IMG/VR virus record: IMGVR_UViG_3300025168_000049
Location: 1 to 64,000 of that record
DNA: 64,000 nt
Direction: 5' to 3' (one strand)
Source of the DNA: a virus
The notes below the pieces were generated by a model, which was not told the DNA's origin, searched no databases, and saw nothing but the letters and a program-made list of their open reading frames with translations. Each line of letters opens with the position of its first letter. The first letter of the stretch is position 1. The translations under genes were made by a program, and so were the position numbers. Of the stretch, positions 10,227 through 15,411 are shown piece by piece.

Positions 10227-10829
10227 TTATAGAATCATATTAGTCTCTCCTACAGCATCTAATTTAGATGTAGTAACAGAGGCTTTTCCTTCAGCTTCTA
10301 TTGTTATAGAATCTGGTTGTAAAAATGTGTGTAGTTCTTTTGTTTCTTCATTTGTCATAACTACATCAGTATTAGAGAATATGTATTTACCTTCATGAGT
10401 AATATAATCTCCATCTTTACCCTTTCTTTTAGCTGCAGTTTCTATATTCTCTTCTTGCCATTCACTAGCAGTAGTAGTTTCATCTACTACAACTCTGAAT
10501 CTGACGTTGTTATAAGCAGGATTTAAAATGTTTAATTCTAACATTTCTCCTTTCTCTGTAACTTCCCAAGCTGCGTCGCTACCAAGATTAATACCTAAAA
10601 CTTCTGTTGCATCAGCTGGTTCAGCTGTTAACCAAGATCTTCTAGCACTTGAACTGAATCGTTCATCTGATTTGTTCAGTAATGTTAATGCGTTCATTGG
10701 TTTTGCATTGATTTGAATAATTTCTGCGAACTCTAAATGAAGTTTACCTCCATTCACTTGTCTTGCGTTTACTAGGAGAGTATCTCCTGCTTTTAGATCT
10801 TCTAAAGATCCACTGTTAATTGTGTTCAT
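10227..10829 (-). CDS. Hypothetical protein (200 aa)
   Basis: Intact ORF followed by terminator. Confidence 0.7.
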   Translation of the reverse strand: MNTINSGSLEDLKAGDTLLVNARQVNGGKLHLEFAEIIQINAKPMNALTLLNKSDERFSSSARRSWLTAEPADATEVLGINLGSDAAWEVTEKGEMLELNILNPAYNNVRFRVVVDETTTASEWQEENIETAAKRKGKDGDYITHEGKYIFSNTDVVMTNEETKELHTFLQPDSITIEAEGKASVTTSKLDAVGETNMIL

Positions 10830-11156: not shown

Positions 11157-11330
11157 TTAAATAGAACTTACAGTAGTACCAAGTACTATTAATACTACTG
11201 TAAGTATAATTGATAATAAAACTACTGCAATTCGTAGTAGTTTAATTTCTTTTAAATATATGGAGGTTAACCATTTATAATATTTAAGTTGTTTGAGGTT
11301 ATTTGATGAGAGTTCTAATATTGTTTTCAT
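11157..11330 (-). CDS. Small membrane protein
   Basis: Likely start MKTILE at 11330 (4-nt overlap with upstream small ORF); C-terminal hydrophobic helix. Confidence 0.5.
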   Translation of the reverse strand: MKTILELSSNNLKQLKYYKWLTSIYLKEIKLLRIAVVLLSIILTVVLIVLGTTVSSI

Positions 11331-11467
11331 GTCTTTTGAATTGTTATAAAAAATACGGTTAATATTAGTGTAAACCCTTTGTCCCATGCAAATCCTAATG
11401 CACATACTTTTGTTTCATACCCAAGAGTTAGGATATATTTCTCTTTAAAATACCAAGTCTTGTTCAT
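11327..11467 (-). CDS. Small hypothetical protein (46 aa, not in ORF track)
   Basis: MNKTWYFKEKYILTLGYETKVCALGFAWDKGFTLILTVFFITIQKT; 4-nt start/stop overlaps on both sides. Confidence 0.5.
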   Translation of the reverse strand: MNKTWYFKEKYILTLGYETKVCALGFAWDKGFTLILTVFFITIQKT

Positions 11468-12135
11468 CGTTTCCAATTTGGATTTACGCTTACTGATTCT
11501 TTACCAACAAGAGCTGGTATAAGTTCATAACTTTTTGGATCAGCAGAGAAAGTATTTAATTTAGTTCTTAGATCTACAGGATTTGATTCATCATTTAATC
11601 CACGAATCCATTCTCTAGGACTACAAGTAGCATTTTTAGTTGTTAATCTACCTTTACTTGTAATTACAATATTTTGTTTATCTGGTCCTAAATATGCATT
11701 GTATGAATCATGATCATATTCTTTTTGTAGATTGTCTTTAATATAATCTTGAGAATCCATTGTTTCTACTCCGTGTTCATCAGTTGTAGTAAACACTTTG
11801 GGATCATACCAACAACTCTGTGTAACTGGTTCTCTGTAAGTATAAGATATTTGACTGTCTTCGTATTCTAATGCTTCATATCCTAAGAAGAAACATTCTC
11901 TATTTCTTAGGTAAGATAGTCTATTAAACTTTGGTTCTTTGTATAATCCTAGTATTACTTGTAATGCTACTGGAGGATTAGGTGTTGCGTGTACTACTTT
12001 GAAGACTCCATCAATTTGAGCTTTGTCAAACCCTTTGAATTGTAGTAGTTCTTTCATTAGTGCTCCTGTATTACTCTGATTTAGAGCTTCTAAAAGCACT
12101 TCTTTTGAATTTTTTTTGATGTTTCTTGGATACAT
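11464..12135 (-). CDS. Hypothetical early protein (223 aa)
   Basis: Intact ORF with AAATT-ATG start context. Confidence 0.7.
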   Translation of the reverse strand: MYPRNIKKNSKEVLLEALNQSNTGALMKELLQFKGFDKAQIDGVFKVVHATPNPPVALQVILGLYKEPKFNRLSYLRNRECFFLGYEALEYEDSQISYTYREPVTQSCWYDPKVFTTTDEHGVETMDSQDYIKDNLQKEYDHDSYNAYLGPDKQNIVITSKGRLTTKNATCSPREWIRGLNDESNPVDLRTKLNTFSADPKSYELIPALVGKESVSVNPNWKR

Positions 12136-12181
12136 AATTTAATGATTTTAATGGTTAATTGATTTTAGTTTATAATAAATA

Positions 12182-12867
12182 AAATGGGCTGAGATTACAC
12201 CATTTAATACACATCTTTCGTTGTTTAATTCCCACCCCAAGGCAGGTTAACAACTTATCCACTATTGTCTCCAATAGTATTGTGCAATGACGATTAGTAT
12301 AGCTAATCACTCTTAACGTTATAAATTACTCACAAGATACTTAGACGAGGTGATAGGTTCTAGGGCCCATACCTGCTTTTCTCTTGAAATACATATCAAC
12401 TTGAGGTATCAATGCACCTGAATTCTCTTATTTGAGTCCAGACTTAGTCATCTTTCATTCATAACGGAACAACACTTGTTCTTTTTTAGTTGTTATTATT
12501 ATTGGCGCAAGTAGTGGTTATTCTATAGTTTCGTCGCCTTTTGAGAGACAAAATACTATACTACTCACATATAACTTTTCATCGTTATGGTATTTCAGGT
12601 TATATCTATTCTCTAGATTGCCCATCATACTGATTCATACTCTTCATTAACTCGACAGTTAATTCAGAACTAAATCTACAGTTGTTTCCTATTGCTATCA
12701 CTAGCTCATCTCTCCCACTAAAATAGAAGAAATACACATACCCTCAGTCAGTTGACCCTTGGTGCTGTGTAGTATCCTGCTTGCTTAAATTGACCGTAAT
12801 TGGCAACATAGATTCCAACACTATGTCTTTAGGTATATTACTATACTTATCGGGTTAAGCCCCATTT
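12182..12867 (-). ncRNA. Candidate large structured ncRNA (~690 nt; GOLLD/ROOL size class)
   Basis: ORF-free gap; complementary ends AAAUGGGGCU/AGCCCAUUU; GNRA-capped hairpins on minus strand (GUAA, GUGA, GAGA) and many further stems. Confidence 0.7.
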
Positions 12868-12877
12868 CTTTAAAACA

Positions 12878-13093
12878 CTATTTCTTTAGCATTTTACTCA
12901 TTTTATATCCACCTTCCATATATAATTCTACTTTATCAATACAATCATATATTTGAATGTTATTATTTTTGATCATCCAGAATCTTGCTGCTTTTAAACA
13001 ATCAGCTCTGTATTTCCATCTATCTGCTCTAGGCAGTTTATTTAACTCTTTTTGAGTTAATACTTGAATGTTTGGTAATTTATAATTTGCCAT
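12878..13093 (-). CDS. Hypothetical early protein
   Basis: ORF track; tightly packed small-gene cluster. Confidence 0.6.
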   Translation of the reverse strand: MANYKLPNIQVLTQKELNKLPRADRWKYRADCLKAARFWMIKNNNIQIYDCIDKVELYMEGGYKMSKMLKK

Positions 13094-13095
13094 GA

Positions 13096-13329
13096 TTAAT
13101 ATATTTTTGGTTGTTTATATCTATGTACTTTTATATACTGTTCGTGTAAATCATTACAATTATGGTTCTTATTGTAATTCCATTGAGTTATTAATGCTTT
13201 ACTTTCTTCTACTCTACCACTATATTTAAAGTAATTATCAAATTCAATGTGATTACGTTTATATCTTTCATACCATTCTTGTTCCTCTTTCATTTCTCTT
13301 ACGAAATGCTTCACTAGTTCTTTATTCAT
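13096..13329 (-). CDS. Hypothetical early protein
   Basis: ORF track; 4-nt overlap with upstream gene. Confidence 0.6.
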   Translation of the reverse strand: MNKELVKHFVREMKEEQEWYERYKRNHIEFDNYFKYSGRVEESKALITQWNYNKNHNCNDLHEQYIKVHRYKQPKIY

Positions 13330-13607
13330 AATACAGTATTAACTTTTAATGCTACAACTACTTTGATTAAGTCTTGTATTAACTCATCATGTTTAGCTTT
13401 ATTTATAGTTGTTTTATTACTGTGTTTATATGCAGACTGTAAGTAGTCTAGTGTGCGTTTAAGAGTTTGTAAGTGAAGATGATTATAGTCTGGTCCTGAT
13501 TTGAATTTCTCTTTACTTAGTTTATATTCTAATTCTTCAACTCTGTTCTTTAGTTCATAGATAGTATCATTATTATCTTGTAACATTCCTGCTATTTCTA
13601 AATTCAT
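13326..13607 (-). CDS. Hypothetical coiled-coil early protein
   Basis: ORF track; 4-nt overlap with upstream gene. Confidence 0.6.
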   Translation of the reverse strand: MNLEIAGMLQDNNDTIYELKNRVEELEYKLSKEKFKSGPDYNHLHLQTLKRTLDYLQSAYKHSNKTTINKAKHDELIQDLIKVVVALKVNTVL

Positions 13608-13810
13608 TTGATTTGTTTTTTATAGTATTCTATTATTAAACTATCTCTTGTATAACTATACTCTAGATATGCTTTATCTAATTCATAGTCTATTTGTGTC
13701 TGATGTGGTGTTAATTTAGGTGAACATGATGTAATAATTGATACTATTATTAGTATTAATATAAATATAATTATACGCATCCAATTCACATCACTTAGTT
13801 TATTCTTCAT
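13604..13810 (-). CDS. Putative small lipoprotein
   Basis: Start MKNKL, hydrophobic stretch, lipobox-like ITS-C. Confidence 0.55.
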   Translation of the reverse strand: MKNKLSDVNWMRIIIFILILIIVSIITSCSPKLTPHQTQIDYELDKAYLEYSYTRDSLIIEYYKKQIK

Positions 13811-14360: not shown

Positions 14361-14386
14361 AAAAAAAAGGGTTTTATAACCCTTTT
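14361..14386 (-). terminator. Intrinsic terminator overlapping the stop codon of the first leftward gene
   Basis: AAAAGGGTT-TTAT-AACCCTTTT hairpin with T-tract on minus strand. Confidence 0.55.
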
Positions 14387-15138: not shown

Positions 15139-15411
15139 ATGAATTTCACACCAAATGGAGTTTGGGTAATCCTCCCAGATCCAACAATCACAGAGACAGA
15201 ATCAGGAATCATTTTAGATGAAACCACTGCTTTAGAAAACTCTAAGAAGTCTAATATATTAGAAGTATTAGCTGCAGGGCCTCAATGTATCTTCGTTAAA
15301 AAAGGAGATACTGTTATGATAGATCCCCGCACAGAAGCGGTTAGAGCTACTATAGAAGGAAAAGAATACTTAATGGTAGGAGAACATCAAGTATTAGGTA
15401 TACTACAATGA
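15139..15411 (+). CDS. groES: Co-chaperonin GroES (Cpn10)
   Basis: P.G..V, TESGIIL mobile loop, V.AAGP, VKKGD.V, EGKEYL.V.E..VLG; ATG at 15139 (track start lies in the promoter). Confidence 0.85.
   Translation: MNFTPNGVWVILPDPTITETESGIILDETTALENSKKSNILEVLAAGPQCIFVKKGDTVMIDPRTEAVRATIEGKEYLMVGEHQVLGILQ

What the first reader, a model, noticed from the sequence alone, without database searches (positions are those of the whole stretch)
12182..12867. ~690-nt end-paired, GNRA-rich candidate large ncRNA among the early genes
This is the longest ORF-free gap in an otherwise densely coded window. On the minus strand the 5' end AAAUGGGGCU (12867-12858) pairs with the 3' end AGCCCAUUU (12190-12182). 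Inside are GNRA-capped hairpins GUAUA-GUAA-UAUAC (12846-12833), GCUA-GUGA-UAGC (12705-12694) and ACUAUUG-GAGA-CAAUAGU (12278-12261). Further stems include GACAUAG/CUAUGUU, AUUAAC/GUUAAU, GAACAA/UUGUUC and GAUUAG/CUAAUC. Size and phage setting recall the ornate GOLLD/ROOL RNAs, but no tRNA was seen next to it. It is either a divergent member in a crAss-like phage or a new class; function unknown.
Basis: partly seen in the sequence, partly recalled or inferred. Interest (0 to 1): 0.85.

Follow-up and report, generated by a model that had tools for sequence, protein, structure and literature searches.

The report
GOLLD RNA in marine crAss-like phage
The gene-free stretch encodes a compact (~680-nt) member of the known GOLLD family of giant folded phage RNAs, which build RNA-only cages; it sits in a marine crAss-like phage with no tRNA genes, so it is a real RNA but not a new class.

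Summary
Window 12182-12863 (minus strand) is a GOLLD RNA. Rfam RF02032 matches 12186-12568 end to end at 212 bits (cut-off 150). This is the conserved 3' domain. The upstream 295 nt form a structured, lineage-specific 5' domain.

Twenty-one further IMG/VR contigs carry the same two-domain RNA (664-727 nt). Most that can be placed are marine crAss-like relatives with it in the same variable interval. On 19 sequences, 95% of cells pair and 109 of 165 pairs show compensatory changes.

Two proposed pairings are not the conserved ones: the 5'/3' end pairing and GAACAA/UUGUUC. The 3' tail pairs locally to extend P27.

- **Differences from textbook GOLLD:** no tRNA anywhere in the 86.8-kb genome, shorter length, no L21b hairpin, and a 4-nt palindrome in L21a that switches between CUAG, GAUC, AGCU and GGCC.
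- **Distribution:** present in some close relatives and absent in others, and discordant with the terminase gene.
- **Expression hint:** marine metatranscriptome contigs cover only the RNA (weak evidence).

The function of GOLLD is unknown. Assembly into a cage is inferred, not shown. This scan has already noted GOLLDs in crAss-like phages on other DNA. Verdict: a new member of a known kind, of moderate interest.

The parts
12182..12863 (-). Whole GOLLD RNA core, 682 nt. Homology with relatives starts at about 12863-12867 and stops at about 12182.
   Evidence: nhmmer and MAFFT boundaries against 21 homologous loci, with flanks diverging at these points. RNA-library contigs cover 12187-12853 only.
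12569..12863 (-). 5' domain, 295 nt, specific to this lineage and outside the Rfam model. It holds 16 helices.
   Evidence: Helices 1-16; 42 of their 67 pairs show compensatory changes. A profile of this domain finds nothing in the GOLLD loci of Acinetobacter phage AM24 or Caulobacter phage phiCbK.
12182..12568 (-). Conserved GOLLD 3' domain.
   Evidence: Rfam RF02032 at 12186-12568, model positions 1-416 of 416, 212.3 bits against a cut-off of 150, E 1e-58. Helices 17-36.
12852..12863 (-). 5'-terminal hairpin: GGG (12863-12861) pairs with CCC (12854-12852). Its whole 6-nt loop, GCUUAA 12860-12855, pairs with UUAAGC 12788-12783.
   Evidence: Column 13:24 is GC in 14 and AU in 5 sequences. Helix 16-21:128-133 has compensatory changes in 4 of 6 pairs and is 100% paired.
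12833..12846 (-). GNRA hairpin GUAUA-GUAA-UAUAC.
   Evidence: All 5 pairs show compensatory changes; 100% paired (helix 4).
12694..12705 (-). GNRA hairpin GCUA-GUGA-UAGC.
   Evidence: 3 of 4 pairs show compensatory changes (helix 11).
12507..12568 (-). First stem-loop of the 3' domain (Rfam model positions 1-62), with the invariant loop UCAAAAG. Its internal loop GAAUAAC (12523-12517) pairs at long range with GUUGUUC (12473-12467).
   Evidence: alignment; helices 17-21. It corresponds to env-38 pairs 467-471:555-559 in Supplementary Table 3 of PMC12286853.
12474..12506 (-). A-rich variable linker between the first stem-loop and the rest of the 3' domain.
   Evidence: Gappy, unpaired columns in alignment A2. 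The Rfam consensus has a longer linker here.
12447..12451 (-). AUGAC of the invariant GAAAGAUGACUAA motif, pseudoknotted with GUCAU 12291-12287.
   Evidence: Helix 23: 100% paired, with 559:733 AU in 13, GC in 5 and GU in 1. It corresponds to env-38 pairs 576-580:743-747.
12355..12368 (-). Hairpin equivalent to L21a of env-38. Loop CCCUAGAA carries the palindrome CUAG at 12363-12360. The neighbouring L21b hairpin of the Rfam consensus is absent.
   Evidence: A palindromic tetramer (CUAG, GAUC/UCGA, AGCU or GGCC) is present in 15 of 19 homologues. The window lacks 17 model positions. Mapping rests on the env-38 P21 pairs, including 653:661.
12261..12278 (-). Hairpin ACUAUUG-GAGA-CAAUAGU.
   Evidence: Helix 34; 4 of 8 pairs show compensatory changes.
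12182..12205 (-). 3'-terminal hairpin P27, extended: AAAU-GGU / GCC-(C)-AUUU. It carries the invariant loop GUAAUCUCA at 12198-12190.
   Evidence: Pairs 827-829:839-841 are standard in 19 of 19 sequences, with GC, CG and UA types. Every homologue folds this hairpin on its own.

Best explanation
The stretch is a gene for a GOLLD RNA (Rfam RF02032) on the minus strand of a marine crAss-like phage. It has the same orientation as the flanking small genes of the leftward replication/early arm.

**Shown here**
- It has the canonical GOLLD 3' domain, including both long-range pairings and the invariant L27 loop.
- It has a 295-nt, covariation-supported 5' domain.
- It is a discrete module whose homology ends exactly at the RNA ends.

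**Inferred**
- Like the solved GOLLD env-38 (a 14-mer cage), the folded RNA assembles with copies of itself.
- One contact would be a symmetric kissing loop at L21a. Here that loop carries a 4-nt palindrome that changes only from one palindrome to another among homologues.
- The RNA is probably made within a longer leftward transcript and trimmed to its structured core. No promoter, terminator, tRNA or ribozyme is recognisable at its ends in this window.
- In relatives the same RNA is flanked by a Pistol ribozyme or by tRNA-like elements, which fits an RNA that is cut out.

**Unknown**
- What the assembly does is unknown for the whole family. The published guess is encapsulation or scaffolding during infection.
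For: **Family and structure**
- Rfam GOLLD full-length match, 212.3 bits against a cut-off of 150.
- All 21 homologous loci also pass the cut-off, at 193-226 bits.
- On 19 sequences, 95.0% of cells pair against 36-42% when partners are slid; 109 of 165 pairs show compensatory changes; 0 of 500 shuffles reach this.
- The equivalents of env-38 pairs 467-471:555-559 and 576-580:743-747 are kept, with covariation.

**Self-assembly**
- L21a palindromes CUAG, GAUC, AGCU and GGCC occur in 15 of 19 sequences.
- PMC12286853 uses the same kind of palindrome-to-palindrome covariation as evidence for symmetric intermolecular kissing loops.

**Discrete module**
- Flanks diverge at the RNA ends.
- Neighbouring genes differ between loci.
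- RNA identity is discordant with TerL identity: L083 has TerL 78% and RNA 57%; L099 has TerL 37% and RNA 75%.

**Expression (weak)**
- 22 of the 24 best-holding public runs are marine metatranscriptomes.
- Their contigs cover 12187-12853 and bridge the domain junction, but never enter the flanking ORFs.

**Processing in relatives**
- A Pistol ribozyme lies 44 nt upstream in L086, L101 and L103.
- tRNA-like elements abut the RNA in L083, L088 and L097.
Against: - No experiment shows a transcript, its ends or a multimer for this RNA.
- Contigs cannot show ends or strand, and DNA carry-over in RNA libraries is not excluded (caveats).
- The L21b hairpin, which makes a second half-shell contact in env-38, is absent.
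- The 5' domain that forms the cage cap in env-38 is about 125 nt shorter here and not alignable to two GenBank GOLLDs. A 14-mer cage is therefore an extrapolation.
- Four of 19 homologues lack an L21a palindrome of 4 nt.
- No processing signal, sigma-70-type or Bacteroidota-type promoter, or terminator is seen at the ends in the window.
Confidence: 0.85

Rival explanations
1. It belongs to the GOLLD family, but this compact lineage does not build the env-38-type 14-mer cage. With no L21b and a smaller 5' domain, it would act as a monomer, a dimer through L21a, or a cage of different stoichiometry.
For: - All 19 homologues lack the L21b hairpin.
- They are 664-727 nt long against 833 nt for env-38.
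- The 5' domain is 295 nt, against 420 nt in env-38, and is unrelated in sequence to two other GOLLDs.
Against: - The 3' domain, which forms the ring and the contacts between half-shells in env-38, is otherwise complete and highly conserved.
- The L21a palindrome is strengthened rather than lost.
Confidence: 0.25
2. It is a cis-acting structured leader or intergenic element of the polycistronic mRNA that regulates the downstream gene 11464-12135, not a free-standing RNA.
For: - It lies 10 nt after the stop of ORF 12878-13093 and 46 nt before the ATG at 12135, on the same strand.
- No promoter or terminator is seen at its ends.
Against: - The flanking genes are different in homologous loci, while the RNA is conserved and its homology stops at its ends.
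- Relatives flank it with a self-cleaving ribozyme or tRNA-like elements.
- RNA contigs do not extend into the ORFs.
Confidence: 0.05
3. It is a new class of large non-coding RNA, a ROOL relative, or a group I/II intron, rather than GOLLD.
For: The 5' 295 nt have no Rfam match and no similarity to the 5' domains of two GenBank GOLLDs.
Against: - The 3' 383 nt match the GOLLD model over all 416 positions, far above the cut-off. No ROOL or intron model reaches E <= 1.
- RNA contigs bridge the two domains (records 12, 16 and 23).
- A variable 5' region is a stated property of GOLLD (PMC12286853).
Confidence: 0.01
4. It is protein-coding: the small ORFs inside it (12170-12310, 12518-12628, 12606-12737) are real genes.
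For: ORFs of 36-46 aa exist on the minus strand.
Against: - Substitutions among homologues are compensatory in stems (109 pairs).
- Indels are not in multiples of three.
- The region matches an RNA family.
Confidence: 0.01

Closest known systems
GOLLD RNA, Rfam RF02032. Solved example: env-38, an 833-nt marine-metagenome RNA, PDB 9MEE (Kretsch et al., Nature 2025, PMC12286853).
   Same: - Full-length match to the family model.
- Same 3'-domain helices, the same two long-range pairings and the invariant L27 loop GUAAUCUCA.
- L21a loop with palindrome-preserving covariation.
- Two-domain layout, with a variable 5' half and a variable linker.
- Phage-borne and from a marine source.
   Different: - 682 nt rather than 833 nt, with a 5' domain of 295 nt rather than 420 nt.
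- The L21b hairpin (contact B9 in env-38) is absent.
- The L21a self-complementary core is 4 nt, where the paper describes a GC/CG dinucleotide.
- env-38 lies downstream of a tRNA-Met, whereas this genome has no tRNA at all.
GOLLDs embedded in phage tRNA arrays: Acinetobacter phage AM24 (KY000079) and Caulobacter phage phiCbK (JX163858).
   Same: The 3'-domain profile built from the crAss-lineage RNAs finds the AM24 3' domain at E 4.6e-23.
   Different: - AM24 has tRNA-Asn upstream and tRNA-Asp starting 10 nt after its GOLLD. phiCbK has tRNA-Gly inside its GOLLD.
- Here there are no tRNAs.
- The 5'-domain profile finds nothing in either phage.
- They are different phage groups with Proteobacteria as hosts.
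ROOL RNA (rumen-originating, ornate, large).
   Same: A large ornate phage RNA that forms an RNA-only cage. Also often lies near tRNAs.
   Different: No Rfam ROOL match here. Sequence and fold are unrelated.
GOLLD RNAs noted earlier by this scan in other crAss-like phages (e1-5997252, e1-6015086, e1-6016069).
   Same: GOLLD-family RNA in the early or variable region of uncultured crAss-like phages, without the usual tRNA neighbours. One is flanked by self-cleaving ribozymes.
   Different: - Those were described as divergent and below the Rfam cut-off, at 735-910 nt. This one passes the cut-off and is shorter.
- No look-alike stretch of this RNA was on record.
- Here the ribozyme (Pistol) is seen only in relatives, not in the window.

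Membership tests
GOLLD (RF02032) | Covariance-model score at or above Rfam's gathering score, over the whole model. | tested here: met
   212.3 bits against 150, model positions 1-416 of 416, E 1e-58.
GOLLD (RF02032) | 3'-domain helices supported by compensatory changes. | tested here: met
   Helices 17-36. Most pairs show changes on both sides, and 84-100% of cells pair in each helix.
GOLLD (RF02032) | Long-range pairings of the 3' domain (env-38 467-471:555-559 and 576-580:743-747). | tested here: met
   Window 12523-12517 with 12473-12467, and 12451-12447 with 12291-12287. Covariation is in helices 20, 21 and 23; the mapping comes.
GOLLD (RF02032) | Conserved L27 loop that organises the 3' domain. 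| tested here: met
   UAAUCUCAG is invariant in 19 of 19 sequences, closed by a covarying P27.
GOLLD (RF02032) | A large structured 5' region contiguous with the 3' domain, with variable sequence. | tested here: met
   295 nt in 16 helices with covariation. RNA contigs bridge the junction. It is shorter than the 420 nt of env-38.
GOLLD (RF02032) | Symmetric kissing loop L21a (contact B8). | tested here: met
   The loop carries CUAG. Homologues switch among the palindromes CUAG, GAUC, AGCU and GGCC, in 15 of 19 sequences.
GOLLD (RF02032) | Second symmetric kissing loop L21b (contact B9). | tested here: not met
   17 consensus positions are deleted in the window. No second hairpin is present in any of the 19 homologues. 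This is a feature of env-38 and the consensus, not of the family definition.
GOLLD (RF02032) | Location in a phage or prophage. | tested here: met
   86.8-kb virus record with 127-bp terminal repeats and crAss-like terminase, portal, major head protein and DNA polymerase genes.
GOLLD (RF02032) | Neighbouring tRNA genes (frequent, not obligatory). | tested here: not met
   ARAGORN finds none in the window, the whole genome, or the 21 homologous loci.
GOLLD (RF02032) | Assembly into a closed homo-14-mer cage. | not testable with these tools
   Only indirect sequence evidence is available, from the L21a palindromes. It needs mass photometry or cryo-EM.
ROOL | Match to the Rfam ROOL covariance model. 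| tested here: not met
   No match at the gathering score in the window, and none at E <= 1 in 11500-13500.
Group I / group II introns | Match to the Rfam intron models. | tested here: not met
   No match at E <= 1.

The most novel reading that the evidence does not exclude
This is a distinct, compact GOLLD lineage that moves horizontally among marine crAss-like phages and is not tied to tRNAs. Having lost L21b and enlarged the L21a self-pairing, it would build an assembly of different geometry or stoichiometry from env-38. It would be released from early transcripts by interchangeable end-processing modules: a Pistol ribozyme, tRNA-like mini-helices, an unknown conserved upstream element, or, in this window, host nucleases alone.
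Probability: 0.25. Interest if true: 0.6.

Novelty: new member of a known kind. Interest (0 to 1): 0.38.

Why it matters
GOLLD is one of very few natural RNAs known to build a closed RNA-only cage, and its function is unknown.

- **Wider range.** A well-populated lineage in marine crAss-like phages, which probably infect Bacteroidota, extends the family to a major and mostly uncultured phage order. In the paper library searched, no text mentions GOLLD together with crAss phages.
- **Link to tRNAs is not obligatory.** This lineage shows that GOLLD does not need neighbouring tRNAs.
- **Natural deletion variants.** The members are about 680 nt, lack L21b and carry a 4-nt L21a palindrome. They could test which contacts the cage needs.
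- **Practical annotation.** This 'gap' should be annotated as a GOLLD gene.

Tried and rejected
- **blastn against GenBank phages.** The RNA gave no match, so that collection yielded no homologues.
- **TerL-anchored loci.** Only 1 of 80 held the RNA. Four near-complete relatives and seven further loci have no GOLLD. This shows patchiness and is not a search failure.
- **Known RNA families at the window's RNA ends.** Nothing reached E <= 1 in 11500-13500.
- **Promoters, terminators and T-loops.**
  - Sigma-70-type promoter hits are no more frequent than in shuffles, and none sits at the 5' end. No terminator-like site sits at the 3' end.
  - There is no Bacteroidota-type TAnnTTTG box on the minus strand between 10124 and 15200.
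  - There is no tRNA T-loop motif near the RNA.
- **Upstream elements in relatives.** The conserved upstream element of L089, L090, L094, L098 and L085, and the CUGAUGA-containing flank of L092, matched no Rfam family at E <= 0.5. They fold no better than shuffles.
- **Exact motif pattern in 185,579 prokaryote genomes.** No match. The pattern is strict, so this says nothing about GOLLD in general.
- **Uncovered flanks in RNA contigs.** Lack of cover is not evidence of absence. Only the positive cover of the RNA and the bridging of the two domains are used.
- **Direct comparison with env-38.** Mapping of L21a and the pseudoknots rests on the paper's numbered pair table.
- **Literature searches.**
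  - GOLLD with crAss as a word start returned only false positives, from author names and 'crassulacean'.
  - A six-term search was uninformative.
  - GOLLD with Crassvirales, crAssphage or crAss-like returned no papers.

Full report
**What is there**

The minus strand of window 12136-12877 is the longest stretch without an ORF of 50 aa or more, at 742 nt. The 686-nt stretch folds better than dinucleotide shuffles, with z = -4.26.

A scan of the whole window against Rfam 15 gave one match above a gathering score. It is GOLLD (RF02032) at 12186-12568 on the minus strand, covering model positions 1-416 of 416, at 212.3 bits against a cut-off of 150 and E 1e-58. A permissive scan of 11500-13500 found nothing else at E <= 1: no ROOL, intron, ribozyme or tRNA. 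The Rfam model covers only the conserved 3' half of GOLLD. The remaining 295 nt (12569-12863) are the variable 5' half.

**The genome**

The window is the first 64 kb of an 86,774-bp IMG/VR virus record rated 100% complete, with 127-bp direct terminal repeats and 33.8% G+C.

Its DNA polymerase, large terminase, portal and major head protein match phage families. The terminase is 39-41% identical to those of gut crAss-like phages. Weaker matches come from Bacteroides, Flavobacterium and Cellulophaga phages. The runs that hold the sequence are marine. ARAGORN finds no tRNA or tmRNA in the window or in the whole genome.

The RNA lies on the same strand as the leftward block that includes the DNA polymerase. 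It starts about 10-14 nt after the stop of ORF 12878-13093 and ends 46 nt before the ATG of ORF 11464-12135. None of ten neighbouring small ORFs matches a PHROG family.

**Homologues**

- blastn against GenBank phages found nothing.
- A terminase-anchored search of IMG/VR gave 80 loci of close relatives (TerL 79-84% identical). Only one of them holds the RNA.
- Four near-complete relatives and seven other loci spanning the syntenic interval have no GOLLD.
- A pattern built from three invariant 3'-domain motifs retrieved 21 IMG/VR loci.
  - All 21 contain both the 3' domain and a 5' domain homologous to the window's.
  - All 21 pass the Rfam GOLLD cut-off, at 193-226 bits.
  - None has a tRNA.
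  - Seventeen of them share genes with the window. Where both flanks are on the contig, the RNA sits in the same interval, between the homologue of 10227-10829 and the homologue of 15139-15411.
- That interval is 1.5-5.6 kb long and variable in relatives that lack the RNA.
- The 19 full-length, distinct RNAs that were aligned are 664-727 nt long.
- Similarity of the RNA is discordant with that of the terminase. L083 has TerL 78% and RNA 57%. L099 has TerL 37% and RNA 75%.
- Homology with the closest relative begins and ends at the RNA's ends.

I read this as an accessory module that is exchanged among marine crAss-like phages.

**Structure**

On the 19-sequence alignment A2, the RNAalifold consensus was combined with three added long-range pairings, giving 165 pairs.

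- 95.0% of cells form standard pairs.
- This compares with 79% when partners are shuffled and 36-42% when partners are slid.
- 109 pairs show changes on both sides.
- None of 500 shuffles reaches any of the measures.

The 5' domain is as well supported as the 3' domain.

1. **The closing helix between the two ends.**
   - Its column pairs are standard in only 4-16 of 19 sequences.
   - The duplex is strong only in the window, L085 and L096.
   - The 3' tail instead extends the local P27 hairpin in every homologue: AAAU-GGU, loop GUAAUCUCA, GCC-C-AUUU.
   - At the 5' end, GGG 12863-12861 pairs with CCC 12854-12852. Column 13:24 is GC in 14 sequences and AU in 5.
   - The enclosed six-base loop GCUUAA pairs with UUAAGC at 12788-12783, with 4 of 6 pairs covarying.
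   - A hairpin loop that is fully paired to a distant strand is the geometry of a kissing contact. Covariation cannot tell whether this contact is within one chain or between chains.
2. **GAACAA/UUGUUC.** It is standard in 10-17 of 19 sequences. GUUGUUC pairs better with GAAUAAC at 12523-12517, which carries more compensatory changes.

**Comparison with the solved GOLLD**

Kretsch et al. (PMC12286853) solved env-38, an 833-nt marine GOLLD, as a closed 14-mer. The 5' region (1-420) forms the caps and the 3' region (421-833) forms the rings. The two half-shells are held together by two symmetric kissing loops, L21a (B8) and L21b (B9), and one A-minor contact. Their pair table lets me map three elements.

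- Pairs 467-471:555-559 correspond to window 12523-12517 with 12473-12467.
- Pairs 576-580:743-747 correspond to 12451-12447 with 12291-12287. Here A:U occurs in 13 sequences, G:C in 5 and G:U in 1.
- The P21 inner hairpin 653:661 (L21a) corresponds to the hairpin at 12368-12355.

In this lineage the L21a loop carries a palindromic tetramer in 15 of 19 sequences. The tetramer switches among CUAG (the window), GAUC/UCGA, AGCU and GGCC. The paper uses this kind of covariation as evidence for symmetric intermolecular pairing. It reports tetranucleotide palindromes for OLE and a GC/CG dinucleotide for GOLLD L21a.

The second hairpin, L21b, is missing. Seventeen consensus positions are deleted in the window, and no homologue has it. 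One stronger self-contact may have replaced two weaker ones; that is my inference.

The 5'-domain profile of this lineage finds nothing in the GOLLD loci of Acinetobacter phage AM24 or Caulobacter phage phiCbK, whereas the 3'-domain profile finds AM24 at E 4.6e-23. Both of those GOLLDs sit inside tRNA arrays, which is the classical context and is absent here.

**Expression and ends**

Of the 24 public runs that best hold the stretch, 22 are marine metatranscriptomes. Contigs of four of them were laid on 11300-13800.

- They cover 12187-12853 only.
- Some are identical to the window.
- Three bridge the junction between the two domains.
- None enters the flanking ORFs.

Contigs cannot show ends, strand or level, and DNA in RNA libraries is not excluded, so this is a weak hint of a discrete and abundant RNA.

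In the window I find no promoter of sigma-70 or Bacteroidota type, no terminator, no ribozyme and no tRNA-like element at the ends.

Relatives do carry processing devices.

- A Pistol ribozyme (69 bits against a cut-off of 34.5) ends 44 nt upstream of the RNA in L086, L101 and L103.
- An acceptor-plus-T-arm mini-helix lies about 13 nt downstream in L083 and L088.
- A degenerate tRNA-like element abuts the 5' end in L097.
- Five loci share a conserved upstream element of about 110 nt that has no Rfam match.

This variety fits an RNA that works as an excised molecule. How the window's copy is released remains open.

**Mechanism**

- **Shown:** family membership, fold, modularity and conservation of the elements above.
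- **Inferred from the family's solved structure and from the L21a covariation:** the RNA self-assembles into a multimer, probably a cage.
- **Unknown for the whole family:** what the assembly does.

I put about 0.97 on 'GOLLD RNA gene', about 0.6 on 'forms a closed homo-oligomer like env-38', and about 0.25 on a different assembly state.

**Novelty**

The family is known and the Rfam cut-off is passed, so standard annotation would find this RNA. Three things go beyond the literature I could search:

- the carrier, marine crAss-like phages;
- the complete absence of tRNAs;
- the compact form without L21b and with a 4-nt palindrome.

This scan had already noted GOLLD-family RNAs in other crAss-like phages (e1-5997252, e1-6015086, e1-6016069). 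No look-alike of this particular RNA was on record.

Verdict: a new member of a known kind, of moderate interest.

Noticed in passing
L086:837-912 (-), L101:11396-11471 (-), L103:8127-8202 (-): A Pistol self-cleaving ribozyme (Rfam RF02679, 69.4 bits against a cut-off of 34.5) ends 44 nt upstream of the GOLLD 5' end in three marine crAss-like contigs. It is a likely 5'-processing device. I know of no report linking Pistol with GOLLD.
   Followed up: partly
L083 and L088, about 13-57 nt downstream of the GOLLD 3' end; L097, the 4-100 nt upstream of the GOLLD 5' end: tRNA-like elements that ARAGORN and Rfam do not call. L083 and L088 have a 7-bp acceptor stem plus a T-arm with GUUCGAUUC. L097 has a degenerate tRNA-like fold abutting the RNA. 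They are possible RNase P or RNase Z processing signals, in the manner of mascRNA.
   Followed up: partly
L089:6859-6970 (-) and the equivalent flanks of L090, L094, L098 and L085: A conserved element of about 110 nt lies directly upstream of GOLLD in five loci, with a covarying 7-bp stem (CUCCAUU/AAUGGAG against CUGCAUC/GAUGUGG). It has no Rfam match at E <= 0.5 and folds no better than shuffles. It could be an unrecognised processing element.
   Followed up: partly
L099:10790-11201 (+), L101:8287-8713 (-), L103:5018-5444 (-); short matches at L091:1188-1270 and L093:7716-7798: tmRNA genes (Rfam 71-75 bits; ARAGORN gives a tag peptide in L099) lie 1.7-1.9 kb from the GOLLD in distant marine crAss-like contigs. 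83-nt tmRNA-like matches lie upstream of the GOLLD in L091 and L093.
   Followed up: no
L099, L101, L095, L083: L21a loop (alignment A2 columns 654-661): These four homologues have non-palindromic L21a loops (UUUAGCGG and UUCGCUAC). That cannot apply here, because L21b is absent, so their partner is unknown.
   Followed up: no
window 12870-12906 (-): A 10-bp hairpin, UAAAAUGCUA/UAGUGUUUUA, spans the stop codon of ORF 12878-13093 and ends just upstream of the GOLLD 5' end. It has no U-run and is not conserved in relatives.
   Followed up: no
window 14365-14386 (-) and 11166-11205 (-): The only terminator-like sites on the minus strand near the RNA. They would bracket a leftward transcription unit of about 3.2 kb that contains the GOLLD and seven small ORFs.
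   Followed up: no
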